From Dipteris shenzhenensis (taxonomy: Eukaryota): a stretch of DNA of 64,000 bases. The notes below the pieces were generated by a model. The model had not been told where the DNA came from. It worked only from the letters and a program-made list of their open reading frames with translations, and did no database searches. This document shows, one piece after another, positions 2,066 through 64,000 of the stretch (position 1 is the stretch's first letter; each line of letters opens with the position of its first letter). The stretch lies in the NCBI GenBank assembly GCA_047967505.1, contig CM106538.1. One strand, written 5' to 3'. The position numbers and the translations under genes are program-made.

Positions 2066-5000
2066 ATGGCGTCCTTCAGCTCCTGTCTTTGCAGGCAGCT
2101 GCTCCTCCTAATTCTTTCGCTTGCGCAGTCGGCCCGTTTGAATGCTCTTCTTCGTCATGATCAGTACCAGTACAATTGTAGTGTTTCCTCCACTATCGAC
2201 CTGAGCCTCTTCCCCAGCAGCTTCGTCTTCGGAGCCCAAACTATGGCGGTGAAGGTATCCTTAGTCAGCTCCACTATTAGAAAATTAGCTCACGATGAAT
2301 TGTTTGCACTGAATTTACCGCTTGCTCCCACCCAGAAAGAAGAAGGGAGGAAGCGTGTCCGGCCGTGTGTTGTTTGATTCTCGAGTGAGAAATTGTTTGC
2401 ACCAGATGTCTGAACGGTCTGGAAATTGAGTGAAGAGTCGAGAGTCGAGAGTCGCACACTTAACAGTTCTAATGAGTCACATTCTAACACGAACGAACGA
2501 GTGTAGCACAAGCATGTGTTGTAGAAAACACAAGTAGTTGTTTTAGTTCCATGATTGAAACCCGGCTGCTTCTGACGGAAGAGTAGTTTCTAAAATTTGT
2601 TGAGCAAGCGTTGTGAATCCACTAGTGCGCAGGGTTGAGTGCTGCATGAGGGAAGAATTGTTGCTTTGGTTGGACGAGAATTCTCGCAGGGTACATACAC
2701 AATGAGTCGCTTCCAAACTTTCGGAATGAGTATCAGAAATATCATAACAAGTTGACAGATTACTAATGTGGGTTCAGGATTGTTTGAACTGATGCTTATC
2801 CATTGTGCACTCGACGCATCGTCTGCTCGATGAGTAATGTTGTGAATGAAATCCGGCGTTAGAAGTCCACTCCATGGGTTGTTTATGCCTGCAATTGATG
2901 GTTCGTTAGAAAGCCAGTGCTCTCCTTACACTTTCGTAAAAAAGTGTTAGCACTGCCTGCAATTGATGGTTTGTTGGTTTGTTAGAAGGGCAATGCTCTC
3001 CTTACACTTTCGTAAAAAAGTGTCCCTCCAATTTTATTAGGCCAGGTCTCCCTATGTTTCTAAAGTGCTCATGCTGCCTTCTATTTTTAGCACTACCCCC
3101 AAATTTTATTGATGCCCATTGCCCAAGCTACTCGCCTCTGTCTCACTCCCCGCCCCACCATACATATTCCAACGCTGTTTGATGAACGGGTGAATGCGTT
3201 ACATAGTTGTTTGCATTGACTGCGCTTGTTTGCGCCGAGTAATAAATTTTGTAATTATACCCCTCTGCGGCTGTTTGAGATTAACTTTTTTTTAAATTTT
3301 AAACATGAACGTTCTCGGTCTAGTCCTTAATAACGATTTCTACTTCAATTTTTCCTCCACGTTCCATAGCACGAAGGTGCTTCTCCAGCTCCGGGCAAAG
3401 GCGACAGTATTTGGGACACCTACGCGGCGTCTTCTACCTGTAATTTCTCCTAGGGGTTCCCTCAAATTGCGGTTTCAAGTTTCCATCAGACCATCAGGAC
3501 AAGATTACATGATTCTAATTGCGGATGTTTAATTTGCGGTTTGCAGCTCCGGTGGCTGACGGTAGCACACCAGGCAGTGCAGGTGACCATTACCATCGCT
3601 ATCGGGTAAGATATTGCCCGCGCACGGCTTCAAGTGCGCCCGACAGATACCGAAGTAATTTTCCTGTAGGAGTCTACACGGCCTCCATAAAAACTAAATA
3701 TTCTGGGCGTCCACCTCCTACTTACAGCGCGCCGTTCCTTCAACTCCCTTGTTTCTGTTCAGGAAGATATAGAACTCCTGTCCGACATGGGAATGGATGC
3801 ATATCGATTTTCGATCGCCTGGACAAGGATCTTTCCAAGTTCGTTACTTCACTTTACAGAGACTTAATCCATAGGCTAATCCATTCATGTAAATAGCTGA
3901 GACCGACTCCCGAGTCAGGCTCACTGATGTTCAAAGCTATTTACCTGCGCAGATGGACCTGGAGAAATCAACGAGGAGGCTGTACAACACTATAACGATG
4001 TCATTGACCTCCTCCTAGGCAAAGGTGATCGATTTAGCTAAGCTGAGTGTAGCTTTCGCTATTCGCCACGAACATTTATTTTGAAATTACATCACTCACA
4101 TATTTGTCACAAGTACAGGAATACAGCCGCACGTCACCCTCTGGTCTCTCGACCATCCGCAGGCTCTCGAGGACTCCTACGGTGGCCTCCTGAGTCCGTC
4201 CTTTATGTAAGCTACTGTAATGTCCTGGGCTCTTGACGCAATATTGTCCTCTTGTATCTTCGTGTGTGGTCGTCCTTCGCATTTTCAGTACTGACGCTTT
4301 TCATGTCTTCGAATTATGTAGAGAAGATTTCGTTATATACGCCAATGTCTGCTTCAGTTCGTTCGGAGATCGGGTAAAGCTATGGGTAACTATGGATGAG
4401 CCCAATGACTACGCTGTTTTAGCATTTGCCTCTAACCAAGAACCGCCAGGACGGTGCAGTACTTGCACTGCAGGAAACTCATCAACGGAGCCCTACATTG
4501 TGGGTCATAATGCCCTGCTTGCGCACGCAGCTGTTGTGGAACTATACCGAGCAAAATACCAGGTGATCGGATCGCAGGTGGTAACTAGTAAAACCTCCTT
4601 GCAAAATCGCATAGTGACATGTCAAAAAACTAACGCGACTGTCCTCACACCTGACAGGCTACTCAGCAAGGTCGCATTGGCATAGCATTGTGGTTCGTAT
4701 GGTACGAGCCCTTGACTGAGAGTGCACAAGATGTGGCAGCGGCGAGGAGGGCGATCGACTTCTTTACTGGGTGGTGAGTATAATTTCAAATTGTAGAGCA
4801 TGTAATCAACTCAGAAAACCTGAAATCTTAGTGAAAGCGAAGCTTATGCCGCAGGGTGCTTGAAAAACATTTGTTTTTTGCACCTTTTTGCATTCCATAT
4901 CTCAATTCAACAGCTCGCAAAGGCGCCGCAGGATGCTTCCAATCCGTTAAGTTTATGCAGGCTCCGCATTCTGTATTATGAATTCAACAGCTGCATGGTT

Positions 5001-7472
5001 GCGATGGTGATGAGGCCAGAGATCCAGATGCAGCTGATGAAGATGATCTATTGTCTTTTGGTCTGCAGGTTTTTGCATCCGATAGTGTGGGGAAGCTATC
5101 CAGAGTCGATGCGGAGCGCGGTGGGCGAGCGGCTACCAGAATTCAGAGAAGAAGAGATAGAGAGAGTGCGGTATTCGGTTGATTTTCTGGGACTGAACAT
5201 CGCCACTGCGACGTACGCCTACGATGGGACGGCCGTGCCGGATGCTAACAGCACGGGATTTTATCAAGACATGCGGGCAAGCTTCACAAGTAGGCTTTCC
5301 TATCAACGTCCTTTCATGTTGGACACTCACGACCAGCAGGACAGAATCTGCTGGTGGAAATATAAAAATGAAAAAAAGTTCCCTGACAAATTATTTTTGG
5401 GAGCAGTGGTAAATGATAAAGAAGACACCCAATGACAATGCTATCGTAGTCCATTTTTGTCCCTGAATTATTTTACAGTTGATGCCTTATTGGAAGCCCT
5501 CGTCCAGTACTCTAGAAACTTTTTTGCGTCAAGTACTTCCGAAACTTTCTAATAAGGGCAGAGCATTTCTCGGGAGTATGCAAATACATATTTATTTTTA
5601 TATATTTCTCTATCGGGTTAACATTTAAGCTACTTCGCATGTGAAAAGTTTGAAATTTCTTGGGTAGCCGTTATTAGACGTTAGAGGGGCTTTATCATTC
5701 ACCAACTTATAACTAGACTATCATTGAAATAACAATAGATGGAGAATATAAGTTTTATCAAGCAATTTATTTTCATATTTGAAAGGCTTTGCTTTCTCAC
5801 TTTCAAAAAATGTTCTTCATTTGTTTATTTTGTTTACTATGTAGATTATCGTGATGGAGAAGCAATTGGAGAATTTCTTGAGGTAAGACAAACACAGCCT
5901 TTGTTAAAAGAATAGATAAAACAAAAAGACTTATGCTGCATATTATTGTGCTCCTCCCCCCAAGCTGCCAAATCTATTAGAGGATAGTTAGCCCCAAGAA
6001 AAGACCTGTTACCAAAATTGGTCCATAATTACGTGGGCAAGCTTCCTTGGACCTACACTAATTGTAGCTTTGGGTAATTGTAGGGGTTCACCCTTACTAG
6101 TAAGACTAAACACAAAAACCGCCACCTTGAGTAGACACTGACTAGTAAGACTAACTGTGGGGGTTAACCCTTACTAGTAAGACTAAACACAAAAACCACC
6201 ACCTTGAGTAGACACCGGCTAATCAGTGGGTCTTTGGCCCTCAACAACCAACTAAAGTCTCAAAGGTTCGCTTTCAAAAAGGCCCGAATACTTGCTACCC
6301 TGTCTCTACCAACACCTTGGACTGGGCTTAGACTCGTGGACTCGGACATTATGAAACTCCCAAATAGCAAGCAAGAAAGCCGATTGTAGGAACGGATTAC
6401 AAGCAGCTCCCAAAGTTGACGGGAGTCTAGACACATCTCCCATTAGAGCCAACCACCAATTTGTGCCCAAGTAAAACTTTGCCATGATTCCTACTTTCCT
6501 AATCGCCACCTCCAAGCCCTTTCGAATTTCCCTTGCAACATGCCAATTCCACATTAGTTTAGAAGAAGTGTGCAATAGGTACTGTTGTGCCCTTAACAAT
6601 AGAATTCATGCTGGTTTGGTAAGTTGCATGTCTTTCTTGAATCGCTTATTAGTAGTTACAGTATGCTTGTAGATATCTATGAATCTCTTATTAGTAGTTA
6701 TGGTATGCTTGTAGATGTCGAATCAAGCTGCAGTACCATGGAGTATGCGGAGCATCTTGAACTATGTGACCAAAGAATATTCAAGCTCCATTTCAATTTA
6801 TATAACAGAAAATGGTGAGAATTATCATAGTCTTGTACATGTTCTCGTGTCAAATATTCCATGTAGAATAGATGATCATCCGAGCGTGGGTACATTTGAA
6901 AACAATTGCTATATTTTATCATAGTGTCATTATGTGAGAATCATTACATGATTATGAATTATGTATAGGTTCATGCTCATGAATACTCCCAAAAACAAGG
7001 CTTTGATTTTGTGTATTTGACAAAACTACGCATTTCCATACTGCAGGATGGGGATTGGAGAGCAATTCCTTAGAAGAAACCTTGAATGATGTGGAGCGCA
7101 TTGGATATTTTAATGCTTATCTAACTTGCCTTTTAGAGGGTATAAGGTATATCGAATATCACCTTTTTGTGTTCAAGAAATTGTATAATGTTTCAAGATC
7201 ATTAAGTAAAATAATATGTTTTAATTACTTTTACTCAGTGTAATAATTTCTCTTGTAGGGATGGAGCAAAGGTTGATGGGTACTTTGCTTGGTCATTAAT
7301 TGATGGGTTTGAGTATGTTTTAGGCCAATCAATACGATTTGGTCTTCATTATGTGGATTCATCATTCAAGAGGTACAAAAGGACATCATCCTTATGGTTT
7401 GCAGAGGGTATGACAAAAAGGAAAACTACCAGTACAAAGTCAACGAATGACACCACTTATCACTATATTTAA
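2066..7472 (+). CDS. Glycoside hydrolase family 1 (beta-glucosidase-like) protein, 13 exons, 527 aa, probable signal peptide
   Basis: Exons: 2066-2254, 3370-3439, 3547-3605, 3763-3838, 3953-4024, 4119-4206, 4322-4562, 4658-4773, 5069-5289, 5845-5882, 6715-6814, 7047-7146, 7259-7472. All introns are GT-AG and the exons splice in frame (1584 nt). GH1 motifs: [51 protein letters not shown] (acid/base Glu), IYITENG (nucleophile Glu), [12 protein letters not shown]. The start ATG is inferred. Confidence 0.93.
6007..6598. mobile_element. Possible solo LTR or small insertion in GH1 intron 10
   Basis: Bounded by TGTTA...TAACA, with an internal ~55-bp direct repeat (~6082-6137 and ~6159-6216). The flanks do not form a matching TSD. 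Confidence 0.3.
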
Positions 7473-11295: not shown

Positions 11296-13350
11296 GTCCC
11301 ATCAAGAATTTCATCCCTTGACTAGAACATGTGCATTCATCTTGTGCGTGGTACTCGGTCTATGTGGATGGTCAAGAGGGTGTTCTTGATGATGATGCCA
11401 TTGCTATGCTTGTAAACTAGGATCATGGAAATGCTAAACCTAATTAGTATTAGCAAAGATACGAATTCAGGACATGAGACATACGAACATTCTTACATTT
11501 TGTTTCTCATACAATTGTAAAAGATCGTTTCCTCGAATATCAAACCATAAACCCTAAACTACCAATCATGGTAACCAACATCCATTTCAAAACAGTGCAT
11601 AATATGATTTAGGAATATTTAAAAAGTGCACGACTTATAAACAAACATTGTTTGTAGGCCAACTAGCAACATCATTATGTAAATACTATGCTATCCACCT
11701 TGTAAATCAAGATATGATGAGATGTCAATATTGCAAATTTTTTAGATAAATTTTCATATCATCAATTGATTGCATTGCGTCATTTTTATCAACATTATGT
11801 GCGTGTAGTTTGGTAAGCAACAAGTCCATTATCATCCGTTCCCAAGACTCATTCTGGCACTTGGAGTTTACAATCCCACAATAGCTTTATTACATGCCCT
11901 GGGTATAATTGATCACTTGAAAATTACTACAAGGCATAGGTCCTTTTCCGATAATAATACCAACCTTTTTTTGACTAAAAAACTTTTTTTTGACGAGCGC
12001 AAAGGTCGTTATTTACGTCACAATAAACATCAAAAAAGAACGGTTGCTATATAAGCATCACTATATAGCGACACTAATAAACGTTGCTGTATAATGACGC
12101 TAGTAAATGTCGCTATATAGCGACAATTAACAAAAGCTTTAAAAAACATTAGTGGGGCTAAATAGGGCCACAACAAGCCCTGTTTTACCCCACTAATGTT
12201 TTTTATTTAGTAATTACAAAAGAATGTTGTTTATTATAAAATTTTCCTTGTGGAAAGGGTGATACAAAATCACTCAAATGAACCAAGTAGCAGAAGCATA
12301 TACATGTCGAAGATATACAACATTGTTTGTTACAAAATTACCCTTTCGAAAAGGGTGATACAAAATTGCTCAAACGAGCCGATATACAAAAGCATATATA
12401 TGGCGAAGTATATGCAAACTACTACTTATACTAGTAATACTACTACTCATCCGAATCATCATCGTCCTCCTCATCCTCGTCTTGTTGGCCTAATCCTTGG
12501 CCCTCGTGAGTTGTGTCTGCTCCCTAGCCCTCGTGAGCTTCGCCTGATCCCTGGCCCTCGTCAAAGTTGTGTACGCCTAATCCCTCATCATCACCGCTCA
12601 CCTCCACTAATGGGACGTTCGAGCTTTGATTCTAAGAGTGAAACCATATTAATTGCAAATTAGATTGGAACTTATAGAATAAAACAGTTTAAAAAGTGCA
12701 ATTACAAGTAGGAGTAGACTTATACTGTGCGAGCAACCACCTCAGCCCAATCGACCATCGCTCCCAGTGCCTCCTACTCAATAAACCATGGCTTTGTTCC
12801 TACGCGAAATGTGCAACTCGTCTTTGAATGTGTAGGAAGGCGACCCATCACAACTTGTTGTGGGTCCAATTTACGAAAGTTAGATAAAGTGCATGCAATA
12901 TGTAGTAAAACAAATAGAACAATACATTAAATGAGAAGAAGTAGACTTACCATAGTTGCCTCGAATGCCAACCGTCCGCTTGCACCAAAGTGCGAAGTAC
13001 TTACGGAGTCCATCCATCTCCTCACATCCTTCCTCTGACCCTTGAACTTTTCGAGATGATCCCTGTTCTGCTTCTTGATAAACTTCCAATCAGCTTTGTC
13101 TGCCCAGCTGGGTTTAGCTTTCCCCTTTGCGATGGAAGTATGCAAGGTTGACCTACGATGCTTTAAGATCAAACCCATGCGCTCTTGCATGTTATTCTCA
13201 TTGAACTCTCAATTTGGGAGGTCAGGGAATTTCTTTTCAACTCATCAATGATTGCCTGCTTCTTTTGGTCCGCGAGTCACTCGCCAGTCAGTAGCTATGT
13301 CACTCCTAAAGTGGTGGCTCATCAACCACCTCATGGTGGCCATCACTGCT

Positions 13351-13607
13351 TGACAAAATATGAAGAGGGGAGAGGAGAAGAGTGGAGATGAGGAGAGAGG
13401 GCACAGCTAGAGAGCACACCACAAATGACTAACTGTACACTAGAATTAGTTGAAAAAATAGAATATATACAAACCCTTTTAGGGTTAGGGTTAGGGGATC
13501 TAACCCTTTCCTTTATAGCACTCTATAAGGTTAGTGCTATGCACATATGATCACGTGATGGTGCTATGCACACATGATCACATGATGTTGAGCGTGAACT
13601 CTCAACA
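13351..13607 (-). repeat. 3' LTR (257 bp) of the copia element
   Basis: Identical to 20381-20637, with TG...CA termini and an adjacent PPT. Confidence 0.97.
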
Positions 13608-13695
13608 CCTTCCCTCAAGATCAACATCATGAAGTAGGCCTTCCCTCAAGATGATGATTCTGGGGAATCGAAGAAGGACTGAGCATTACATTCCA

Positions 13696-16600
13696 TCACA
13701 CCCCTTTAATGGGAATGTCCTTCCTCTGCATCAAACCAAGAGCTAGTCGGTGTTTCTCGAATAGCTCTTTACCGAGTGGTTTGGTAAAGATGTCTGCAAC
13801 ATTTTCTTTGCTATCACAATGCTGCAGTGTGATGTCACCAAGTAACACTCTTTCTCTGATGAAGTGCTCTCTGACATCAATGTGCTTTGTCCTGGAGTGA
13901 TATACTGGATTTTTGGCCAATGCTTGAGCCGATTGATTATCACAGTATATTGTTGTTGGCTTTGACTCATCAAAGTAATCTGTTTCTGACAATAGTCTTC
14001 TGAGCCATATAGCCTCACATGCACCTGTAGTGAGTGCTCTATATTCTGCTTCAGTCGAAGACAAAGAAACAATTGGCTGTTTGTTTGACAACCATGATAT
14101 AGCACCTTGACCAAGGAAAAATGCATATCCCTGTGTCGATCTCCTGGTCTCATGATCTCCAGCATAGTCACTATCACAGTATCCATGCAACCGTGGATGA
14201 CTTCCTCTGTATTCTATCCCAAACTGTCTTGTACCTCTGATGTATCTCAAGACTCTTTTGGCTGCATTCCAGTGAGACTGTTTTGGATTTGCCATAAACT
14301 GTGCTAGTGAGCTTACTGCATAACAAATATCTGGCCGTGTGATTGTCAGATATATAAGAGATCCAATGAGTTGCCTGTAGTATCTGTCATTGAATGTAGG
14401 CTTTTCTGAATCTTTACTAAGTTTCAAACTCTGTTCCATGGGAGTGGCTGCAATCTTGCAATCTGCCATATGAAACTTCTTCAGGAGACTGTCAACATAT
14501 TTGAGCTGACTCATAAATGTGCTATCGGAATCTCTCCAGAACTCAATTCCAAGACAATAGTGCATAAGTCCAAGATCTTTCATGTCGAACTCTGCAGATA
14601 AGTCTTGTTTTAATTTTCTGATGAAGCTATCCTTGCTTCCTGTCACAATCAGATCATCTACGTACAAAAGTGCAATAGTAATATCTTCCCCTTGAACCTT
14701 GTAGTAGAGAGTATGATCTGCATTGGACTTCATGTATCCCAGATCAGTAAAATACTTGTCAATTCTGCTGTACCAACTTCTGGGTGCTTGCTTTAAGCCA
14801 TAGAGACTTTTCTTGAGATGGCAAACCTTGTTCTCCTGTCCTGGTTCAACATAACCGGCTGGTTGTTGCATGTAGACATCCTCGTCTAGATAACCATTGA
14901 GAAATGCATTCTTGACATCGAGCTGATACACATTCCATTTACTGAGTGTCGCGAGTGATATCAAGAACCGTATGGAATCCATCTTTGCTACTGGAGCATA
15001 AGTCTCATCATAATCTTGGCCATATTGTTGTGCAAATCCTTTTGCAACTAATCTGGCTTTGTATCTCTGAATACTGCCATCTGGATTGTACTTGACTTTG
15101 TATACCCATTTGTTGGCTATGGCCTTCTTTCCTGGTGGAAGGTCGCATAATACCCAAGTGTTATTTTTATACAAAGCATCCATTTCTTCATTCATAGCAG
15201 TTTGCCATTCTGGCTTATCTACTGCGTCTTCGAAGTACACTGGCTCTTCTGTAGCCATGATGGTAGTCATAAGAGCATAGTTGGTGGTTTCCACCTGAAT
15301 TGCTTTGCCTTTCTGAGCATATGTCAATCTGGCTGGTGGTCTGCTTTCCCTAGTAGACCGTCTGAGCTGCTGTGGCACTGCTTGGGGTGTTGCTGGCAAT
15401 TCTTGCTCTTCTTCATCAACCTGTTCTGTAGATGACTGTGAAGTCGATGCTTCTATCTCCTGTGTAGGTGAGGTTTTCCATTCTAATTCCTCATCGAAGA
15501 TCACATCTCTGGAGATAATGACTTTGCGGTTGATGGGATCATACAATTTGTATGCTTTGCTTTCTTCACTGTAGCCAACCATGATGCATTTGCGTGATTT
15601 CGCATCCAATTTCCTGCGATGATCATCATGTATGTGGGCATATGCTATGCAACCAAATATGCGGAGATGCCCAATGCGTGGCTTGTGTCCAGTGAATGCT
15701 TCATAAGGAGTCATACCTTGTATCGGTTCGGTAGGAAGCCGATTAAGCAAGTAGTTAGCTGTAGCTATTGCTTCTGCCCAATACTGATTTGGAAGATGCT
15801 TTTCACTAAGCATTGCTCTAGCACTGTCTGCTAAAGTCCCATTCTTCCTTTCAGCTATTGCATTTTGCTGAGGAGTATCTGCACATGTGAATTGTCTTCG
15901 AATGCCGTGAGTTTTGCAAAAGTTCATGAAGGCTGAAGACATGTATTCACCTCCTCTGTCTGATCTCATGACCTTGATTTTTCTACCTGTTTGGTTTTCT
16001 ACCATGGCTTTAAATTCTTGAAATCTGGCAAACACTTCAGATTTCTCTTTCAGAAAGTAGACCCAACAATATCTACTGTAGTCGTCGATGAAGGTCAAGT
16101 AATAAAGTGAACCATTGATGCTGCGGGTCTGGGCATAACCCCATACATCTGTATGAATTAAATCAAGAATACCTCGTGCACGAGAAGTACTTCTGACAAA
16201 GTTGGTTCGCTTTTGTTTGCCGAAGCAGCATGCTTCACAAACCTTTCCAAGAAACTGTAGCTTCGGAATCCCAATTGCCATATTTTGATTCCTGAGATCT
16301 AATAAGTACTTGAAGTTGACATGACCATATCTCTTGTGCCATTTTGCAGATAGTGGCATCTGTTGCATTTGAGCTGACATGGCATGCTTATCTGGTACTG
16401 TAGCTAGCATCCTGTATAAGCGTCCTTCCTTGACACCTTTTGCTACTAGCTGACCTCTTTTGGATTTGTCTCTGATAGTGCATTCATCACCGTCGAAGAT
16501 GACTTTGTAGTTGTGTTCCGTCATTTGACCTACTGACAAAAGGTTCTTGCTGAGCTTCGGAACATAGAGCACATCTTTGACTAATCCTTTTGTACCAGTG

Positions 16601-16866
16601 AAATTGTTCATAGGGATAACACCTGTCCCTTGAACCGGATTCGGTGTATTGTCTGCTGTGTAGATGACATTCTTTTGACCTTCTAATGGCTTCATTTCTG
16701 TGAACCATTCCTGATGATTTGTCATATGAGATGATGCACCGCTGTCGATGTACCAAGGATCCTGTTCCACTTGGTCGACTTGATAGCTGAAATCCTCTTT
16801 GGGATTGAAATCAGTGTCTAGGTGCATTGTATCAGTCTGATGCAATTCCTCACTTGCAAGAAACAT
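13696..16866 (-). CDS. pol: Copia Pol polyprotein (protease, integrase, RT, RNase H), open 1056-aa frame
   Basis: WYIDSGASSHM (PR), WHKRYGH...CEAC and SDRGGEY (INT), QLDVKNAFLNG and LYVDDL (RT), IYCDNQSA and ADIFTKPL (RH). Confidence 0.95.
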   Translation of the reverse strand: MFLASEELHQTDTMHLDTDFNPKEDFSYQVDQVEQDPWYIDSGASSHMTNHQEWFTEMKPLEGQKNVIYTADNTPNPVQGTGVIPMNNFTGTKGLVKDVLYVPKLSKNLLSVGQMTEHNYKVIFDGDECTIRDKSKRGQLVAKGVKEGRLYRMLATVPDKHAMSAQMQQMPLSAKWHKRYGHVNFKYLLDLRNQNMAIGIPKLQFLGKVCEACCFGKQKRTNFVRSTSRARGILDLIHTDVWGYAQTRSINGSLYYLTFIDDYSRYCWVYFLKEKSEVFARFQEFKAMVENQTGRKIKVMRSDRGGEYMSSAFMNFCKTHGIRRQFTCADTPQQNAIAERKNGTLADSARAMLSEKHLPNQYWAEAIATANYLLNRLPTEPIQGMTPYEAFTGHKPRIGHLRIFGCIAYAHIHDDHRRKLDAKSRKCIMVGYSEESKAYKLYDPINRKVIISRDVIFDEELEWKTSPTQEIEASTSQSSTEQVDEEEQELPATPQAVPQQLRRSTRESRPPARLTYAQKGKAIQVETTNYALMTTIMATEEPVYFEDAVDKPEWQTAMNEEMDALYKNNTWVLCDLPPGKKAIANKWVYKVKYNPDGSIQRYKARLVAKGFAQQYGQDYDETYAPVAKMDSIRFLISLATLSKWNVYQLDVKNAFLNGYLDEDVYMQQPAGYVEPGQENKVCHLKKSLYGLKQAPRSWYSRIDKYFTDLGYMKSNADHTLYYKVQGEDITIALLYVDDLIVTGSKDSFIRKLKQDLSAEFDMKDLGLMHYCLGIEFWRDSDSTFMSQLKYVDSLLKKFHMADCKIAATPMEQSLKLSKDSEKPTFNDRYYRQLIGSLIYLTITRPDICYAVSSLAQFMANPKQSHWNAAKRVLRYIRGTRQFGIEYRGSHPRLHGYCDSDYAGDHETRRSTQGYAFFLGQGAISWLSNKQPIVSLSSTEAEYRALTTGACEAIWLRRLLSETDYFDESKPTTIYCDNQSAQALAKNPVYHSRTKHIDVREHFIRERVLLGDITLQHCDSKENVADIFTKPLGKELFEKHRLALGLMQRKDIPIKGV

Positions 16867-17960
16867 ATTTCCATGTTCATTTGCAAAATGACTGTGACTA
16901 GAATGTCCACCACGATGATTTCCTCTTCCTCGGGAATTCCCTCGCTGCTGGATTGACCGCCTTGGTCATACTGCTTCTTGCGGCAATCTCTTTCATAGTG
17001 TCCGAACTTGTGACAATAGTTGCATTGAATGTTTGACACATTGGTGGATGCATTCCCTCGTCCTTGGAATCTTCCTCGGTTGGAATGATTTCCTCTTTGC
17101 TGATTTTGATGTTGCTGAGGATGCTGCTGATGCTGATGCTGATTCTGATTTTAATTTTGTTGATGATGATGACCACTTTTCTGATATGATCTACCTCTGT
17201 TTCTGCCTTTGCCTCTGCTTCTGTCTGAAGCTGTGAATGCCTGATCATTAGAATGACCTTTACGTGCTTGAATGGCCTGAGTCCTGAGTTCTTCACCAAG
17301 TAGAACTGACTGAAGTTCTTCAAGTGTTGGAATTTGCCGTTGGATGGCAATACTCTGGACCAGATTCTCATATCCTTCTCCTAGTCCATTTAGGATTACT
17401 TGAACCATTTCTGCGGGATTCATAGTCTCTCCTGCTACTGCAAGTTGATTGTTGTAGTCTTTGATGCGGAGTACATAAGCATGACCGGTTTCACTGCTGT
17501 TGCGGAAACTCTGGTTGATCTGGTTTCTCAGGGTGAGAATCCTGGATGTGTTCTTGGACTCGTAGAGAGCTGCGAACATATCCCATGCTTCTTTTGATGT
17601 CTTGACTGTGTTGAGCTGTCCTAGCATGACATCTTGCACATTCTGCTTGATCAGGTGATAGGCATACTTGTCTTTCTTATCCCATTCTGCTTGAGCTCGG
17701 GCAATGGCAGGATCTGCTACTGGTGTGGAAACTGTTTGTGTAGATGTAGATCCCGATGTAGATCCCGTTGCTGGTGCTGTGACAACAGATGGAGTAGAGC
17801 TACTGGTGGCTGGATCGGCCAATGGTCTAGGTATGGATCCATCGACATACTCCCATTTGTCCTGAAGCACAAGAATGGTCTCCATTCGGTATTTCCATGT
17901 ACCGTAATTGGAGTTGTCTAACTTAGCAGATGCCTCCAGATTGAGGTTGCTAGTCGACAT
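16867..17960 (-). pseudogene. gag: Copia gag with an in-frame TAA (17151-17153) and a frameshift near 16945
   Basis: AKLDNSNYGTWKYRME start, UBN2-type gag core, and zinc knuckle CNYCHKFGHYERDC in the same frame after the TAA. A frame change is needed to join pol. Confidence 0.88.
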
Positions 17961-18940
17961 GGTGCAAACAATGTACTCAAAAGTGTCCTGAAAAAACTCT
18001 GTATGAATCAACTGCAAATACACTGAAGATGCCAAGTGAAATCTCTGTACCGTCGGTGAAGATAGAACTGCAGTAAATAAGATCTGACCTGTGTTACAAG
18101 GCTTGTGGCAATGATGCCGGGAATAGCCAAGAGGCTTTACAAGGCTGAAAAATGATGTGCACGATGCCGTGAGATAGCCAAATAGGCTTTACAATGGTGG
18201 CATGTGTGTGTGAAATCAAGTGCTATCTGCCCACTGAATCAATCTGCAATGCCTCTGAACTCTGAAGTCTGCTCACTGAACTGATGAACGTAAGGTTTCA
18301 GGTAATGTAATGATGTGAAATCGGATGTGAGCGTATGGACTGACTCCGAGTAGGTACTAGTCGAGAATTTCGGGCATGGCTTAGATTGGCAACTTGGGGA
18401 ATTCAAAGCGTCCCCTCTATGGCGATCTAGTCTACTCTGATCTAGATCTAAACCAACCGTCGATCGATGAAAGAGCAGCAAATAATTCCTTTTCCTTTGT
18501 TCTTTTTAAGTGCTGGGTCAGATGCGTCGATGTAGAGGCAAATGTGCGTGAAGGAAGTGGTTTTGTCGGTGAGGCTCAAATGTGAGTGTAACTTGCGCCG
18601 AAATGTGCGCGTGATGTAACGAGCGCGTAGAGCACAAAAAATCGAGCGACTTTCCTTTTTGGAGCACCCTCAAATTCTTCCTGGATCAAGAGATATGACT
18701 TGATCTAGGTGGAGGGGCAAAAGGAGTGCAAACGGTGCTCAATGATGATGTGTCACTGTGAGTCACATGCAGTGATGATGTGGCACTGTGCTTAGCAAGA
18801 GGTGTGCCAGTGAAGCTCTGTGCTGAGGTGGCAGGAGTGTGCACATGCAGTGTGTGCACAGTGTGCCTGGCAAGGGACTGTGCCTGCAGAGGGTCAGTGC
18901 TGGCTGGACTGCTGAGGTGGCACAGATGATGTCAGCAGGG

Positions 18941-19254
18941 TGACATGGCACTGATGACATGGCCTGATGACGTGGCAGTGCTGACGTGGCAGATGACGTG
19001 GCAGTGCTGACGTGGTAGATGACGTGGCAGTGCTGACGTGGCAGATGACATGGCAGTGTTGACATGGCAGATGACATGGCAGTGCTGATGTGGCAGATGA
19101 TGTGGCAGTGCTGATGTGGCAGTGATGATGTGTCACTGATGACGTGTCAGATAAGATGATGTGGCAAATGGATAAGTGCCACGTGTCAGTTGATTGACCA
19201 CACCTCTGTGTGGTGACCCTTGTGATAGGGTGAGTGGATAAGTGCCACGTGTCA
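18941..19254 (+). promoter_or_regulatory. Tandem array of TGACGTGGC (ABRE/Hex) motifs plus two GGATAAG-GCCACGTGTC (I-box/G-box) units in the copia leader
   Basis: Units alternate 14 and 12 bp (26-bp period). Five exact TGACGTGGC copies plus decayed TGACATGGC/TGATGTGGC copies. GGATAAGTGCCACGTGTCA occurs at 19170-19188 and 19236-19254. Function is inferred. Confidence 0.6.
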
Positions 19255-19341
19255 AAAGGAGGACGATCGAAATCTTTGAGATTCTGACGGAATCTCAAAG
19301 ATTTCGTCTTCTTCGATCAACTGGGTCCAGAGACAGACGTT

Positions 19342-19488
19342 GATACCTATGCCTCGCTGTTGACGCGTTGTACCAGTGCCAAGAACCTGTCGCTGGGTGA
19401 AAGTGTGCATGTACACATGAGCAGGCGCGGATATGCGAGCGACAGATTTCTTAGTAACCTGCTTATTCAAATGTACAATAGGTGTGGG
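19342..19488 (+). pseudogene. Captured fragment of a PLS-class PPR gene, antisense within the copia leader
   Basis: DTYASLLTRCTSAKNLSLGESVHVHMSRRGYASDRFLSNLLIQMYNRCG matches the L-to-S motif pattern of plant PLS-PPR proteins (YASLL..C....L..G..VH......G...D.FL.N.LI.MY.KCG). Confidence 0.8.
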
Positions 19489-19736
19489 CGGAACGAGCTT
19501 GTTGCGAGGCGTGAAGCTCCGGCCGCGCGGCGTGCGCTGCCGAAGTAGTCGTTGGAGTCATTTGCTTTGGAGATGGCAGACCGTTGGAGCAGCCGTGCGA
19601 TGGCGAAGGCTGTAGAGAGCTTCTCCCATGAGCTGGAGCTGTGGAAGAAAGACGCGCAGATAGAAAATTTGAAGGACACTAAGCAGAGGCTGGTGGCGAA
19701 AAATGAGAAGATGGAGAGGAAGCTCAGGAAATTGGA

Positions 19737-20050
19737 GAGGAGCACTATGACGAGACTCCCACGGACACGGATGGTGCACCCACTGAGACTCCTTCTTTCA
19801 AAGAAGAAAGCTACAACGTCGCAGATCTGAAAGAGTCCGAGAAGAAGGCGCTCGAAGCATTCAGGCTGAAAGTCGAAGAAGCGATAAAGAGCAAATCTTT
19901 GCTCAAAAAGAAGAAATCGGAGTCGAAGAAAGAGGCGGCAGCAGCAGCGCCGGAGGACCCCCCGACGGAGACCGAAGCAGTTAAGGCTGAAGAGGTGACC
20001 GAAGCTGCTGCCGCAGAAAAAGAAGTGGTGGAGGTTACGACCACCACAAC
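19737..20050 (+). pseudogene. Captured fragment of a patellin (Sec14/CRAL-TRIO-GOLD) gene N-terminal region, antisense within the copia leader
   Basis: ETPSFKEESYNVADLKESEKKALEAFRLKVEEAIK followed by an E/K/A-rich stretch. This matches the patellin SFKEES....DLKESEKKAL......EEAI motif. Confidence 0.75.
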
Positions 20051-20380
20051 GAGGGAGGCAAAGGGTAGAGAGTTGCAGAAATTCTCGTCTCTCTTTCTCT
20101 CAAAAACAGTAGAGCTTCAGACTCTCTCTCTCAAACAATAGGATCTCTCACACTATGAAGAACCACTCATTCTCCCGGAAGAATGAACGGAATAGAGAAT
20201 CAAATGAATCTCTCAATGAAACTCTCAAGAACAAATGATGGAAATTTCTTTTCGATGGACGAAATTTTCTCTCAATGGAAGAGAATGGAACACTCAATCT
20301 CTCTCGATCTCTCAATCTCTCAATCACTCTCACAAGAAGGATGGCACCTCAACGGAAGGCAGAACCAAGCTCTGATACCA

Positions 20381-20637
20381 TGACAAAATATGAAGAGGGG
20401 AGAGGAGAAGAGTGGAGATGAGGAGAGAGGGCACAGCTAGAGAGCACACCACAAATGACTAACTGTACACTAGAATTAGTTGAAAAAATAGAATATATAC
20501 AAACCCTTTTAGGGTTAGGGTTAGGGGATCTAACCCTTTCCTTTATAGCACTCTATAAGGTTAGTGCTATGCACATATGATCACGTGATGGTGCTATGCA
20601 CACATGATCACATGATGTTGAGCGTGAACTCTCAACA
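20381..20637 (-). repeat. 5' LTR (257 bp) of the copia element
   Basis: Abuts the PBS and is identical to 13351-13607. Confidence 0.97.
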
Positions 20638-21339
20638 CTGCTATGCCCTTTTTATCTTCTATTATCTCTCTAATAGTCATGATTTGATAGGACAGGTCCT
20701 TGATTGGGTAAGGAGGACTCATGGTAGTGGCAGAGTCAGAGCGAGTGGTGCTTATACGAGCGCTTTCAGAGGGAGGAATAGCAATGGGAGTAGGAGAGGA
20801 CAAGGGACCTGACTGGTACTGGGTCTCGGGACCAAGTGGAGACCTGTAGGGATGTGAGTGTGCTGACTCATATACATATCCTGAGTCAGCACAACATAAG
20901 AGACCCCTCCTAATCTTGCTTTCGTTACGATGGGCACACCTAGGTGGTGATCCCTCAATCAAAGGGGTAGAGGGGACGGCTGGACAGTAGGTCCAGCCAT
21001 CGGTGTAGGAGAGAGAGTCGTTGAGGTCCTCTGGGATAGCAGAGAGAAGAATCTCGCTACCTCCTCATCACTCATCTATGCGACAAACTCGTCAGGACTC
21101 CCGACAGAGCCATGGGCTGCTAGCAAAGGAGTTCCCCGAGGGGTAGTCACAGTGCTACGCTTGAGAGGAGTCGAGCCAGGGGTAGTCATAGGGGTAGGCC
21201 CCTAAGGTGTCGCCTGAGTGGAATCAAAGTCCTCTGGAGAATAGAGATCATGATGTCTCCTCCTACGAGGGTTTTCATATCGTCGGACGTGCAACGTGAT
21301 CCCATGTCTAATGTGGGGGGACTGGACAAACGTAGACAC

Positions 21340-22680
21340 AAAAAACAAAAAACAAAAAATAAGAGCGGGTAAGAAGCGAAAAGCATATGAGGGAAAGCAT
21401 AAGAAGCAAAAGAGAAGGAGAAGCATAAGAGAAGGAGAGGGAAAAAGAAGAGAAAGAAAAGGGAAAAAGAGATTGAAAGAGGGGAAAAGAACCAAATATG
21501 CATAAGAAAAAAGAGAGAGAAATCATATGCATAAGAGAAAAAGAGAGAAAGCATATGCTTATGCCTATGCATAAGCATATGAGCATATGCATGAGCATAA
21601 GCATAAGCATAGGCATAGGCATAGGCATAAGAGAATGAAAAGAAGAGAAAAAGAGAGGGAAAAAGAAGAGAAGGAAAGGAGAAGGAGAAGGAGACATATG
21701 CTCATGCATAAGCATAAGTATAAGGGAAGAAAAAAAATATGCTCATGAAAGAGGGGGAAAAGAAGAGGGGAAAAGAAGAGAAGGAAGAGGGGAAAAAGAA
21801 GAGGGGAAAAAGAAGAGGGGAAAAGAAGAGAAGGAAGAGGGGAAAAGAGATTGAAAGAGGGGAAAAAGAAAAGGAAAGGAGGGTAAAAGAGATTGAAAGA
21901 GGGAAAAAAAGAAGAGGGGAAAAGAGATTGAAAGAGGGGAAAAAGAAGAGAAGGAAGAGGGGAAAAGAGATTGAAAGAGGGCAAAAAGAAGAGGAGAAAA
22001 GAGCATAAGCATAAGAGAAGGAAGAGGGGAAAAGAGATCGAAAGAGGGGAAAAAGAAAAGAAGGAAAGGAGGGAAAAAGAGATTGAAAGAGGGAAAAAAA
22101 GAAGAGGGAAAAGAGATTGAAAGAGAGGAAAAGGAAGAGGGGAAAAGAAGAGAAGGAAGAGGGGAAAAAGAAGAGAGGAAAAGAGCATAAGCATAAGAGA
22201 AGGAAGAGGGAAAAAGATCATAAGCATAAGAGAAAAAGAAAGAAAGCATATGCTTATGCTTATGCATGAGCATATGAGCATAAGACAAAAAGAGAGAAAG
22301 CATAAGCTTGTGCTTATGCATGAGCATATGAGCATATGCTCATGCATAAGCATAAGCATAGGCAAATACATATGCTTATGAAAAGAGGAGAAAAAGAGAG
22401 GAAAAAAGAGTGAAAAATAAGAGAATGAAGAGGGGACAAGAGATTGAAAGAAGGGAAAAAGAAGAGGGGAAAAGAGCATAAGCATAAGAGAAGGAAAAAC
22501 ATATGCATAAGAGAAAAAGAGAGATATATTATGCTAAAGCTTATGCATGAGCATATGAGGGAAAGAGGGGGGAAAAGAGAGAGGAAAAGAGGAAAAGAGG
22601 GGAAGAAGAGGGACTAAGAGAAGAGAGGGGAAGAGAGGGTTCCTACGCCTAACGAAAATAACCAAAAGGAAAAAAGAGAA
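21340..22680. repeat. Low-complexity purine-rich tract (AAGAGGGGAAAA-type units interspersed with GCATAA/GCATAT hexamers)
   Basis: Visible degenerate tandem repeats. The ORFs called here are low-complexity artefacts. Confidence 0.9.
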
Positions 22681-63208: not shown

Positions 63209-64000
63209 GGACTTCCTCGAGGGAGAGACACTAGGAGACCCAGAGAGTGCCCCGGGATGTTCGCTCCAGGTTTTGGACGCGATTGTGGTCCAACTTGCGA
63301 CCGAGGAAGATTTCTTACTTCTTTTGGCTGGCAGCCCACGAAGGGTTGCCCATCGGCCCGTAGTTGGAGCAGATGCAAATGGAGGAACAATGCCACTGCT
63401 GCTCAAATAGTGTCCTAGAGACTATCCCACACTGCCTATGGAGCTGTCGTAGCGCAACGAGGATCTGGATGAGAGCCCTCAGGATTATGACACGCATGCA
63501 GAGTCTTCACAGAGACTACACCTAGGGGATGGTGGCTTAGTTGACAGAGGGAGGACACGCGTTCCAGATTGATGAGATCTCCCCAACCTACCGGATACAA
63601 GGTCAGAGCATTCAGAGGATTGTACTCCACGAGGCAGCCCCCCCTGATGCCCTAGCTCCTCCCTCCCCTAGGGAAGATAGTGTTTGGGAGGTGGTAGCCA
63701 GCATCACGGCTTAGAAAATTTGGTTGGCTCGCTGCAGTCTCGTGATGGGAGAGCACCCGGTTCCACCCTCAGCTACCTTGGTTGCCATCTGGCAGGATAT
63801 CATTTGCACTCTACGGTCCACTTAGGAGCGTGGGACTCCAAGCTCCAAGGCGACTATTGAGAGGCGTGCTCGTTTCTGCAAGGCTTGGCCTGCAGGTGTT
63901 TTCTACATTTTCACTCCGCGAGGGATTCACTGGCTGTATAGTTCCCCCACTTGGCCCCAGTTCCCAAGATCCCCTAGGCAGTGAGCTGGGCTTCTCTAGA

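What the first reader, a model, noticed from the sequence alone, without database searches (positions are those of the whole stretch)
19310..20060. Young copia carries an antisense mosaic of at least two, probably three, unrelated host-gene fragments in its 5' leader
Seen: between PBS and gag lies a ~2.4-kb leader. On the strand opposite to gag-pol, ~750 bp reads as fused, intron-free coding pieces: a PLS-PPR segment (19342-19488), a coiled-coil segment in the same frame after one TAG (19552-~19735), and, after a frame change, a patellin segment (19737-20050). Identical LTRs and an intact TSD suggest the cassette moved with the element recently. Known: gene-fragment capture is typical of Pack-MULEs and Helitrons and is less common in pol-intact copia elements; LTR elements can capture mRNA by template switching. 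Inference: each genomic transcript would be antisense to several host mRNAs. It could therefore seed trans-acting siRNAs against a large PPR family, or protect the element because silencing it would also hit host genes.
Basis: partly seen in the sequence, partly recalled or inferred. Interest (0 to 1): 0.85.

Follow-up and report, generated by a model that had tools for sequence, protein, structure and literature searches.

The report
Copia element carrying three host-gene pieces
A recently inserted plant jumping gene carries, backwards in its untranslated leader, short pieces of three ordinary host genes, which is a clean new example of a known kind of gene-fragment capture and not a new mechanism.

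Summary
A 7,287-bp Ty1/copia element lies on the minus strand at 13351-20637. Its 257-bp LTRs are identical and it has a CTGCT target-site duplication. A 2,408-nt leader separates the PBS from the gag ATG.

On the plus strand the leader carries three host-derived coding pieces:
- A PLS-class PPR piece at about 19313-19488 (PDB PLS9-PPR, E 2.4e-26).
- A DUF641/GIL1-like coiled-coil piece at 19631-19754, perhaps starting at about 19563. It is 51% identical to a Pteridium protein.
- A patellin N-terminal piece at 19751-20058. It is 74% identical to a Sec14-GOLD protein.

Public contigs from 3 organism labels carry the patellin piece at about 98-99% nucleotide identity, inside 2.7-2.9-kb contigs that continue differently on both sides. 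One 1,971-nt contig carries the coiled-coil piece at 96%. These two pieces overlap by 4 nt (CGAG), which is junction microhomology. The closest PPR contig is 92.6% identical.

I could not test whether other copies of the family carry the cassette, whether introns are missing, or whether any RNA or siRNA is made. No genome is held.

Capture of gene fragments by LTR elements, in either orientation, and the "silencing conflict" idea are already published. Verdict: real, tidy, a new member of a known kind, of moderate interest.

The parts
13346..13350 (.). Target-site duplication CTGCT (left)
13351..13607 (-). 3' LTR of the copia element (257 bp, TG...CA)
   Evidence: 100% identical to 20381-20637
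13608..13617 (-). Polypurine tract-like run next to the 3' LTR (minus strand reads TGAGGGAAGG)
   Evidence: read; the role is inferred
13696..16965 (-). pol frame, open for 1,089 codons, with protease beta-barrel, integrase, RVT_2
16818..17150 (-). gag C-terminal part with the CCHC zinc knuckle. It is in the gag frame after the in-frame stop. A frame change to pol is needed between 16965 and 16818
17151..17153 (-). In-frame TAA stop inside gag
17154..17960 (-). gag (Retrotran_gag_2, E 4.1e-26), ATG at 17960
17961..20368 (-). 5' leader, 2,408 nt, between PBS and gag ATG
18941..19152 (.). Tandem array, 8 copies of a 26-mer (TGACGTGGCAGTGCTGACGTGGCAGA)
   Evidence: ACGTGGC enrichment
19268..19306 (.). 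Perfect hairpin (17-bp arms, 5-nt loop), 6 nt from the left border of the cassette
   Evidence: -27 kcal/mol, z -5.0
19313..19488 (+). PLS-class PPR gene piece (end of one motif, an L motif, start of an S motif). Protein similarity may run on to about 19515
   Evidence: The best contig is 92.6% identical over 19313-19488
19489..19562 (.). GC-rich stretch of unknown origin between the PPR and coiled-coil pieces
   Evidence: 19522-19562 has no cover in any of the 4 runs, and 19489-19521 has only residual depth. No similarity inside the window
19563..19754 (+). DUF641/GIL1-like coiled-coil gene piece. 19631-19754 is secure. 19563-19630 is uncertain: another paralogue, an intron end or filler
19751..19754 (.). 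CGAG shared by the ends of both parent matches, a 4-nt junction microhomology
   Evidence: tables 7 and 8
19751..20058 (+). Patellin (Sec14-GOLD) N-terminal coding piece
   Evidence: 3, 4 and 6 differences in 308 nt
20369..20380 (-). Primer-binding site, TGGTATCAGAGC on the minus strand
   Evidence: the match to initiator tRNA-Met is recalled, not tested
20381..20637 (-). 5' LTR
20638..20642 (.). Target-site duplication CTGCT (right)

Best explanation
A Ty1/copia retrotransposon of a fern-like host carries a passenger of about 750 bp in its 5' leader. The passenger has no long reading frame. It was stitched together from internal coding pieces of three unlinked host genes: a PLS-PPR editing-factor-type gene, a DUF641/GIL1-like gene and a patellin gene. 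All three pieces lie antisense to the element.

Inferred origin. The pieces were joined by copy-choice, that is, serial template switches primed by a few bases of microhomology, in an ancestor copy. The cassette was then reverse-transcribed and integrated with the element at this site.

Inferred phase. All three pieces are antisense, so the likeliest reverse-transcriptase route is a switch of the growing second (plus) DNA strand from the element's minus-strand DNA onto co-packaged host mRNAs. This would happen shortly after the second strand transfer at the PBS.

Consequence. Every LTR-driven transcript would carry 308 nt that are about 99% complementary to patellin mRNA, plus shorter or less exact complements of the other two genes. 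Whether that does anything is not shown. I take the cassette to be a neutral passenger until small-RNA data say otherwise.
For: Shown:
- The element's structure and youth: identical 257-bp LTRs, TSD, PBS, gag and pol domains.
- Three host-gene identities.
- Near-identical parents. Patellin 19751-20058 shows 3, 4 and 6 differences in 308 nt in X1, X3 and X4. In X2 it shows 0/139 and 3/199. The same loose ends appear on both sides in all 4 runs.
- The coiled-coil piece 19631-19754 shows 5 differences in 124 nt in a 1,971-nt contig.
- The two parent matches overlap by 4 nt, 19751-19754. By my own calculation, chance gives an overlap of 4 or more about 1.6% of the time.
- No inverted repeat longer than 20 nt and no duplication flank the cassette, so there are no MULE-like ends.
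- No long ORF runs across the pieces.

Inferred:
- The parent contigs read on in frame beyond each border. This is my hand translation of the 30-letter loose ends. The borders therefore lie inside coding sequence, as expected for copy-choice.
- The same orientation for all three pieces is required by serial switching among mRNAs, but has a 1 in 4 chance if orientation were random.

Literature (passages read):
- Bs1 of maize carries pieces of three host genes.
- 204 of 6,200 maize Sireviruses carry gene fragments, 15% of these carry two or more, and there is no orientation bias.
Against: - No second copy of the family was available, so carriage through transposition is unproven.
- No contig in the 4 laid runs bridges any junction of the cassette.
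- The left part of the coiled-coil piece (19563-19630) does not match the organism-A mRNA-like contig. It is preceded by a pyrimidine run and AG at 19631-19632, which looks like an intron end. If it is one, that favours capture from DNA or unspliced RNA.
- The review read states that retrotransposon-transduced sequences are usually in the sense orientation. I know of no documented case of plus-strand switching onto mRNA (this rests on recall; no search was made for it).
- The three pieces differ in distance from their nearest sampled relatives: about 1%, 4% and at least 7%. This could mean separate events, or only that the true parents were not sampled.
- The runs are coded and may be sister species rather than the window's own species.
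Confidence: 0.7

Rival explanations
1. DNA-level patchwork. A double-strand break in the leader of a chromosomal copy (this one or its ancestor) was repaired by synthesis-dependent or microhomology-mediated copying from ectopic genomic templates ('filler DNA'). This pasted in pieces of three genes. Reverse transcriptase played no part in making the mosaic.
For: - There is 4-nt microhomology at the coiled-coil/patellin junction.
- A perfect 39-nt palindrome lies 6 nt from the cassette border. Snap-back synthesis could have made it.
- 19563-19630 may be an intron end rather than mRNA (and sequence read).
- Antisense orientation needs no special pleading under this route.
- Maize Sirevirus captures show no orientation bias.
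Against: - Three pieces of 124-308 nt from unlinked genes, all in one orientation, have a 1 in 4 chance if orientation were random.
- If the patching happened after this insertion, it must have occurred within the short time in which the LTRs stayed identical (0/257). The pieces nevertheless differ by 1-7% from their nearest sampled relatives.
Confidence: 0.22
2. The cassette is a remnant of another gene-carrying transposon (Helitron or Pack-MULE) that already held the three fragments. It either nested in the leader or was copied into it.
For: Mosaics of several gene fragments in one orientation are typical of Helitrons. In maize, 68% of fragment-bearing Helitrons carry two or more fragments and 78.6% of fragments are in sense. 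A hairpin sits at one border.
Against: - No terminal inverted repeats and no TSD lie around the cassette. The longest inverted pair flanking it is 13 nt, with arms 1.7 kb apart.
- The hairpin is AT-rich. Reading the sequence on either strand, I see no CTRR end within about 15 nt of it.
- There is no transposase or Rep/helicase similarity in the leader. 10 ORFs were scanned and gave 0 credible Pfam hits.
Confidence: 0.05
3. The cassette is a working module. Antisense host sequence in the element's RNA seeds siRNAs against patellin, the GIL1-like gene and many PPR genes. Alternatively it shields the element, because silencing it would harm host genes. Selection therefore keeps it in the family.
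For: - There is 308 nt of about 99% complementarity to a transcript that has high word depth in the RNA-like runs. Depth there is a poor measure of expression.
- The PPR piece matches 14-41 contigs per run at 80% identity or more (table 3).
- The published conflict model has supporting maize data.
- A dense array of ACGTGGC motifs lies just upstream on the plus strand and could drive the opposite strand. That is speculation.
Against: - No expression or small-RNA evidence of any kind was obtained here.
- The copy has a broken gag-pol.
- Muyle et al. themselves call the advantage to the transposon 'not yet fully convincing'.
- Most PPR matches are only 80-90% identical, which is poor for siRNA targeting.
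Confidence: 0.12

Closest known systems
Bs1 LTR retrotransposon of maize (three transduced host-gene segments)
   Same: An LTR element whose internal region holds pieces of three different host genes, none of them full length (passages read).
   Different: By recall, Bs1's pieces are in sense orientation, form a hybrid ORF with gag and are translated, and Bs1 lacks pol. The review read says only that transduced sequences are usually in sense. Here the pieces are antisense, have no joint ORF, sit in the 5' leader, and the element keeps gag and a long pol frame.
Gene-fragment-bearing Sirevirus (copia) elements of maize and the 'epigenetic conflict' model (Muyle et al., bioRxiv 10.1101/777037)
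   Same: These are copia-lineage elements with exon fragments. 204 of 6,200 carry them, 15% of those carry two or more, and either orientation occurs. The model proposes siRNA cross-talk with donor genes and possible camouflage of the element (passages read).
   Different: Those captures favour 3' exons (64.2%). Here all three pieces are internal or N-terminal coding parts. The host here appears to be a fern. No siRNA or methylation data exist for this case. The supplementary figures of that paper were not seen.
Conserved antisense additional ORFs of plant LTR elements (Grande, RIRE2, Retand)
   Same: Extra sequence on the strand opposite gag-pol inside an LTR element, with suggested dsRNA-based regulation.
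   Different: Those ORFs lie between pol and the 3' LTR, are conserved across copies and have no host-gene relatives. Here the sequence lies in the 5' leader, has clear host parents and has no intact ORF.
Template-switch chimeras among LTR elements (BARE-2, Veju long form)
   Same: New sequence introduced into an LTR element by aberrant template switching between co-packaged RNAs (passages read).
   Different: Those donors are other retroelements or unknown DNA, not host protein-coding genes. Their orientation is not at issue.

Membership tests
Ty1/copia LTR retrotransposon | Two LTRs in direct orientation, ending TG...CA, flanked by a 5-bp target-site duplication | tested here: met
   The 257-bp LTRs are 100% identical and the TSD is CTGCT
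Ty1/copia LTR retrotransposon | PBS next to the 5' LTR and a polypurine tract next to the 3' LTR | tested here: met
   TGGTATCAGAGC at 20380-20369 and a purine run at 13608-13617. The tRNA identity is recalled
Ty1/copia LTR retrotransposon | copia-type gag, and pol with integrase before reverse transcriptase | tested here: met
   Retrotran_gag_2 at E 4.1e-26. In pol, rve lies at residues 236-331 and RVT_2 at residues 568-811
Autonomous (coding-competent) copia copy | Uninterrupted gag-pol reading frame | tested here: not met
   In-frame TAA at 17151-17153, and a frame change is needed between 16965 and 16818. Programmed recoding was not excluded
LTR-retrotransposon gene transduction/capture (Bs1-like) | Host-gene-derived sequence inside the LTR-bounded internal region | tested here: met
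   Three pieces
LTR-retrotransposon gene transduction/capture (Bs1-like) | A parent gene outside the element with nucleotide-level identity | tested here: met
   Patellin is about 98-99% identical in 4 runs, and the coiled-coil piece is 96% identical in 1 run. In both, the contigs continue unlike the element on both sides. For PPR the best contig is only 92.6% identical. The same genome could not be searched
LTR-retrotransposon gene transduction/capture (Bs1-like) | Captured sequence lacks the parent's introns (RNA-mediated) | not testable with these tools
   No genomic parent locus is available. 19563-19630 may even be an intron end
LTR-retrotransposon gene transduction/capture (Bs1-like) | The cassette is shared by other copies, so it was mobilised with the element | not testable with these tools
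   No genome is held. No other copy lies in the window. Nothing was found in earlier findings or in metagenome contigs
Pack-MULE | Long terminal inverted repeats and a 9-bp TSD around the captured fragments | tested here: not met
   No flanking inverted repeat longer than 20 nt
Helitron | 5' TC and 3' CTRR ends with a GC-rich hairpin close to the 3' end | tested here: not met
   The only hairpin is AT-rich (6 GC pairs of 18), and no CTRR follows it on either strand. The end consensus is recalled
PLS-class PPR gene (parent of piece 1) | An L-type motif followed by an S-type motif | tested here: met
   Query residues 8-66 align to three L-S stretches of the synthetic PLS9-PPR, each at about 1e-5, for E 2.4e-26 overall. 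Pfam PPR models are below their cut-offs
Patellin (Sec14-GOLD) gene (parent of piece 3) | The piece aligns to the N-terminal region of proteins with CRAL_TRIO_N, CRAL_TRIO and GOLD-type domains | tested here: met
   8 of 8 hits have CRAL_TRIO_N and CRAL_TRIO. The piece is 74% identical over residues 76-139 of P0001. The name 'patellin' is recalled
DUF641/GIL1-like gene (parent of piece 2) | The piece aligns within the DUF641 domain of a protein that also has GIL1_IRKI_C | tested here: inconclusive
   There is one supporting protein, P0012: library E 9.5e-4, pairwise E 9e-13, aligned to residues 96-156 with DUF641 spanning 20-152. Pfam on the piece itself does not list DUF641. The Atlas gives no usable hit, and the word-based search found none
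trans-acting siRNA source / epigenetic-conflict element | Small RNAs map to the cassette and to the donor genes | not testable with these tools
   No RNA holder is listed, and no junction-bridging contig was found

The most novel reading that the evidence does not exclude
The cassette is a fixed, selected feature of a fern copia family. Its antisense mosaic would have been built in one replication cycle by serial second-strand template switches onto co-packaged host mRNAs just downstream of the PBS. It would make every element transcript a multi-target antisense RNA. That RNA would either trigger siRNAs against patellin and a swathe of PLS-PPR editing-factor genes, or deter the host from silencing the family. 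This would be a mechanistically resolved case of camouflage by capture in an LTR element, outside seed plants.
Probability: 0.1. Interest if true: 0.65.

Novelty: new member of a known kind. Interest (0 to 1): 0.38.

Why it matters
Gene-fragment capture by LTR retrotransposons is documented, but few cases are resolved to the base pair. In this one, two parents are recognisable at 96-99% identity. One junction shows 4 nt of microhomology, and all pieces share one antisense orientation. The case can therefore discriminate between reverse-transcriptase copy-choice and DNA-repair patchwork once the host genome is searched.

The capture review read here never mentions ferns (0 occurrences). None of the 10 listed of 64 papers in my search dealt with capture by fern retrotransposons. 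PLS-PPR families are, by recall, very large in ferns.

If small RNAs from the cassette exist, the case would be a direct test of the published TE-gene 'epigenetic conflict' model in a new lineage. If not, it is simply a well-preserved passenger.

Tried and rejected
- Whole-genome search for parents and sister copies: no genome is held.
- Window self-comparison: no other copy of the element or cassette.
- Earlier findings of the scan: nothing by sequence or by genome.
- Word-based protein search, longer proteins: the PPR piece gave 400 candidates with none at E<=1e-3. The coiled-coil piece gave 48 candidates with none at E<=10. Both are uninformative for short queries against 5.8 billion sequences.
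- NCBIfam: PPR repeat at E 0.042, below the cut-off, and nothing for the other two pieces.
- Atlas on the coiled-coil piece: best score 0.77, not usable.
- Sequencing runs: no RNA holder is listed, and no run holds more than 0.26 of the sampled words.
- Laid contigs: no joints and no contig bridging any cassette junction. Bin 19522-19562 has no cover in any of the 4 runs.
- Rfam on the whole element: 0 matches.
- Pfam on 10 other leader ORFs on both strands: only 2 chance-level rows (E 0.07-0.09).
- Short-word search of the unexplained stretches (19489-19640, 20055-20130, 19240-19320) against the window: only the hairpin's own arms and a 15-nt repeat.
- Two exact 24-mer scans of metagenome contigs, one on the junction and one on PBS/LTR: 0 matches each.
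- Bacterial-type promoter scan: not applicable to a plant. It served only to report the hairpin.
- The second LTR element in the window (60575-63208) was checked as a possible family member. Its gag is only 30% identical over 64 residues, so it is another family.
- Papers: PMC2899935 (Bs1, 2010) is not held. Jiang & Ramachandran 2013 contains none of the words orientation, antisense or intron.
Full report
**1. The element**

Direct repeats of 257 bp at 13351-13607 and 20381-20637 are 100% identical. The repeat finder reports 258 nt, but the extra base is shared by chance. The repeats are flanked by CTGCT on both sides, at 13346-13350 and 20638-20642.

- On the minus strand the right-hand repeat is followed by TGGTATCAGAGC (20380-20369). 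By recall this is the usual initiator-tRNA-Met primer-binding site.
- The left-hand repeat is preceded by a purine run.
- The minus strand encodes a copia-type gag (Retrotran_gag_2, E 4.1e-26).
- It also has a 1,089-codon open pol frame with protease barrel, integrase and RVT_2, in the copia order.

This is a 7,287-bp Ty1/copia element. With 0 differences in 257 bp it is young, though so short an LTR dates it only coarsely.

Contrary to 'pol-intact', the coding region is not one frame. gag is interrupted by an in-frame TAA at 17151-17153, within a Gln/His-rich run. The zinc-knuckle part (to 16818) and pol (open from 16965) are in different frames. Either the source copy was already defective and was mobilised in trans, or the lesions arose in the last cycle. 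Programmed recoding is not excluded.

**2. The leader and the cassette**

The gag ATG is at 17960, so the leader is 2,408 nt. Reading from the PBS on the element's own strand, it contains in order:

- about 310 nt of CT-rich, low-complexity leader;
- the cassette;
- a perfect hairpin with 17-bp arms (19268-19306; -27 kcal/mol, z -5.0);
- an array of eight 26-mers rich in ACGTGGC (18941-19152);
- about 1 kb without recognisable content.

One frame is open from 19300 to a TAG at 19546 and on to 19828. Another frame is open from 19707 past 20100.

**3. What the three pieces are**

*PPR piece.*
- Pfam and NCBIfam PPR models score below their cut-offs (E 0.013-0.14).
- The word-based protein search found nothing.
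- The PDB sequence search is clear. The synthetic PLS9-PPR scores E 2.4e-26 and a synthetic PPR-DYW protein scores 7.7e-26. Query residues 8-66 align three times to the L-motif plus S-motif unit.
- In the language-model Atlas, all ten best family-bearing clusters are PPR.
- L motifs occur only in the PLS class (established knowledge), so 'PLS-PPR' is justified.

*Patellin piece.*
- 8 of 8 hits at E<=1e-3 are 420-626-residue proteins with CRAL_TRIO_N and CRAL_TRIO. 7 of them also carry PF25099.
- The best hit is 74% identical over 65 residues (P0001 residues 76-139). A named Adiantum protein is 57% identical over 90 residues.

*Coiled-coil piece.*
- An exhaustive search of 1.84 billion representatives gave 4 proteins at E<=1e-3.
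- Three of these are multi-stretch matches of the kind coiled coils give by composition.
- The fourth, P0012, aligns once, to its residues 96-156 (98-156 in the HMMER search): 51% identity, pairwise E 9e-13. It carries DUF641 (residues 20-152) and GIL1_IRKI_C, and comes from a Pteridium aquilinum transcriptome.
- This assignment rests on one protein and is the weakest of the three. Pfam on the piece itself, the Atlas and the word-based search do not support it.

The nearest named relatives are ferns and a lycophyte, so the host is probably a fern (inference).

**4. Parents at nucleotide level**

No genome is held. A word index of public runs found six runs holding part of 19250-20110, none above 0.26 of the words. 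I laid the four best (three organism labels, three studies; all kept as contigs) on 19153-20380 at 80% likeness or more.

*Patellin.*
- One long contig per run matches exactly 19751-20058: 2,890 nt in X1, 2,749 nt in X3 and 415 nt in X4, with 3, 4 and 6 differences. X2 has two contigs covering 19751-19889 and 19860-20058, with 0 and 3 differences.
- All runs show the same loose ends on both sides.
- My hand translation of those loose ends continues the patellin frame in both directions. The borders therefore lie inside coding sequence.

*Coiled-coil piece.*
- A 1,971-nt contig in X1 matches 19631-19754 with 5 differences and diverges on both sides.
- Its loose ends also read on in frame and resemble P0012 at the left border. 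This supports the DUF641/GIL1-like assignment.

*PPR.*
- 14-41 contigs per run pile up on 19317-19488 at mostly under 90% identity, as expected for a large family.
- The best listed is 92.6% identical (13 differences over 19313-19488, X4).
- Family members diverge from the window at 19313/19317.

*The junction.* The coiled-coil match ends at 19754 and the patellin match starts at 19751. CGAG is therefore shared. By my calculation, chance extension gives an overlap of 4 nt or more about 1.6% of the time.

*Against my reading.*
- No contig bridges any junction.
- Bin 19522-19562 is uncovered in all four runs.
- The window's 19563-19630 does not match the X1 contig, although it still aligns weakly with P0012.
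- A contig in X4 covers about 19563-19644 (depth table only). It spans 19631 by too few bases to count as bridging.
- The window reads CTTCTCCCATGAG just before the secure match, which looks like an intron end. 'Intron-free' is therefore unproven and possibly wrong for this piece.

**5. How it arose**

No terminal inverted repeats, no target duplication and no Helitron-like ends surround the cassette. A nested DNA transposon is therefore unlikely.

The borders lie inside coding sequence, one junction has microhomology and all pieces share one orientation. Together these point to copy-choice.

Classical transduction is a switch of the first cDNA strand between co-packaged RNAs. It yields sense inserts. 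The review read says transduced sequences are usually in sense.

Antisense inserts therefore need one of three routes:
- an antisense host RNA as template;
- a switch of the second (plus) strand from minus-strand DNA onto host mRNA;
- a DNA-level event such as break repair with ectopic templates.

I favour the plus-strand route for two reasons. It forces all pieces into the same orientation. It also places the event where the plus strand resumes after its transfer at the PBS. This is inference, and the DNA-repair rival keeps about a fifth of the probability. The hairpin at the border and the possible intron end fit that rival better.

That the cassette predates this insertion is suggested by two things. 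It differs by 1-4% from its nearest sampled parents while the LTRs show 0/257 differences. It also lacks insertion signatures. The runs may be sister species, however, so this is only suggestive.

**6. What it does**

Any LTR-driven transcript includes 308 nt that are about 99% complementary to patellin mRNA, 124 nt that are 96% complementary to the GIL1-like mRNA, and 176 nt that are 80-93% complementary to many PPR mRNAs. No evidence of transcription or small RNAs was obtainable.

The plus strand has no ORF across the pieces, so no chimeric protein is expected.

In maize, 204 of 6,200 Sireviruses carry exon fragments, 15% of those carry two or more, and there is no orientation bias. The authors regard an advantage to the transposon as not yet convincing (passages read; supplementary figures not seen). 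I therefore treat the cassette as a passenger and give about 12% to a measurable trans effect.

**7. Comparison and novelty**

The closest single case is Bs1 of maize, with segments of three host genes (passages read; the primary paper is not held). This element differs from Bs1 in four ways:
- antisense orientation;
- position in the leader;
- retention of gag and pol;
- absence of a hybrid ORF.

It differs from the conserved antisense ORFs of Grande, RIRE2 and Retand in having obvious host parents.

I found nothing on such captures in ferns:
- 'fern', 'antisense' and 'microhomology' each occur 0 times in the 2026 capture review;
- the 10 listed of 64 papers for retrotransposon + gene capture + fern are unrelated;
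- the 8 papers for pentatricopeptide + transposable element + captured + gene fragment do not, by title and abstract, describe this.

It is a new member of a known kind. The example is unusually clean, and it would become more interesting if the cassette proves to be family-wide and a source of small RNAs.

Noticed in passing
window 18941-19250: Seven of the window's eight ACGTGGC sites lie in the leader (chance expectation 2.0 per window). By recall, ACGTGGC is an ABRE/G-box-like core. Five of the seven sit inside an array of eight 26-mers. The array could be a bZIP-responsive enhancer for the LTR promoter, or a promoter for the opposite strand running into the cassette.
   Followed up: partly
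window 19268-19306: A perfect 17-bp-arm hairpin with a 5-nt loop lies 6 nt from the left border of the cassette (RNA fold -27 kcal/mol, z -5.0). It may be a snap-back scar of the event that built the cassette.
   Followed up: partly
window 16818-17153: gag carries an in-frame TAA (17151-17153). gag and pol are in different frames, with the change needed between 16965 and 16818, although the LTRs are identical. This suggests a non-autonomous lineage mobilised in trans, or lesions from the last replication cycle.
   Followed up: partly
window 60575-63208: A second, small LTR element (2,634 bp) lies on the plus strand. It has 289-bp LTRs that are 100% identical and the same PBS, TGGTATCAGAGC, at 60864. 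It encodes only a gag plus zinc-knuckle ORF (62029-62547) and no pol. Its gag is 30% identical to the copia gag over 64 residues.
   Followed up: partly
window 52745-54488 and 59686-63936: Long direct repeats of about 88-93% identity, probably LTRs of an older, larger element, are interrupted by the small young element.
   Followed up: no
window 4233-5435: Two plus-strand ORFs match glycosyl hydrolase family 1 (E 8.9e-17 and 1.4e-7) at successive profile positions. They are probably exons of a beta-glucosidase gene.
   Followed up: no
window 21200-22650: An AG-rich, low-complexity repeat block (GAAAAGAGATTGAAAGAGGGG-type units) begins about 600 bp to the right of the element.
   Followed up: no
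window 19177-19243: A 603-nt contig of run X3 matches only these 67 nt of the leader (2 differences) and diverges on both sides. The stretch holds two copies of a 15-nt motif (19174-19188 and 19240-19254). It may be a further small shared or captured piece.
   Followed up: no
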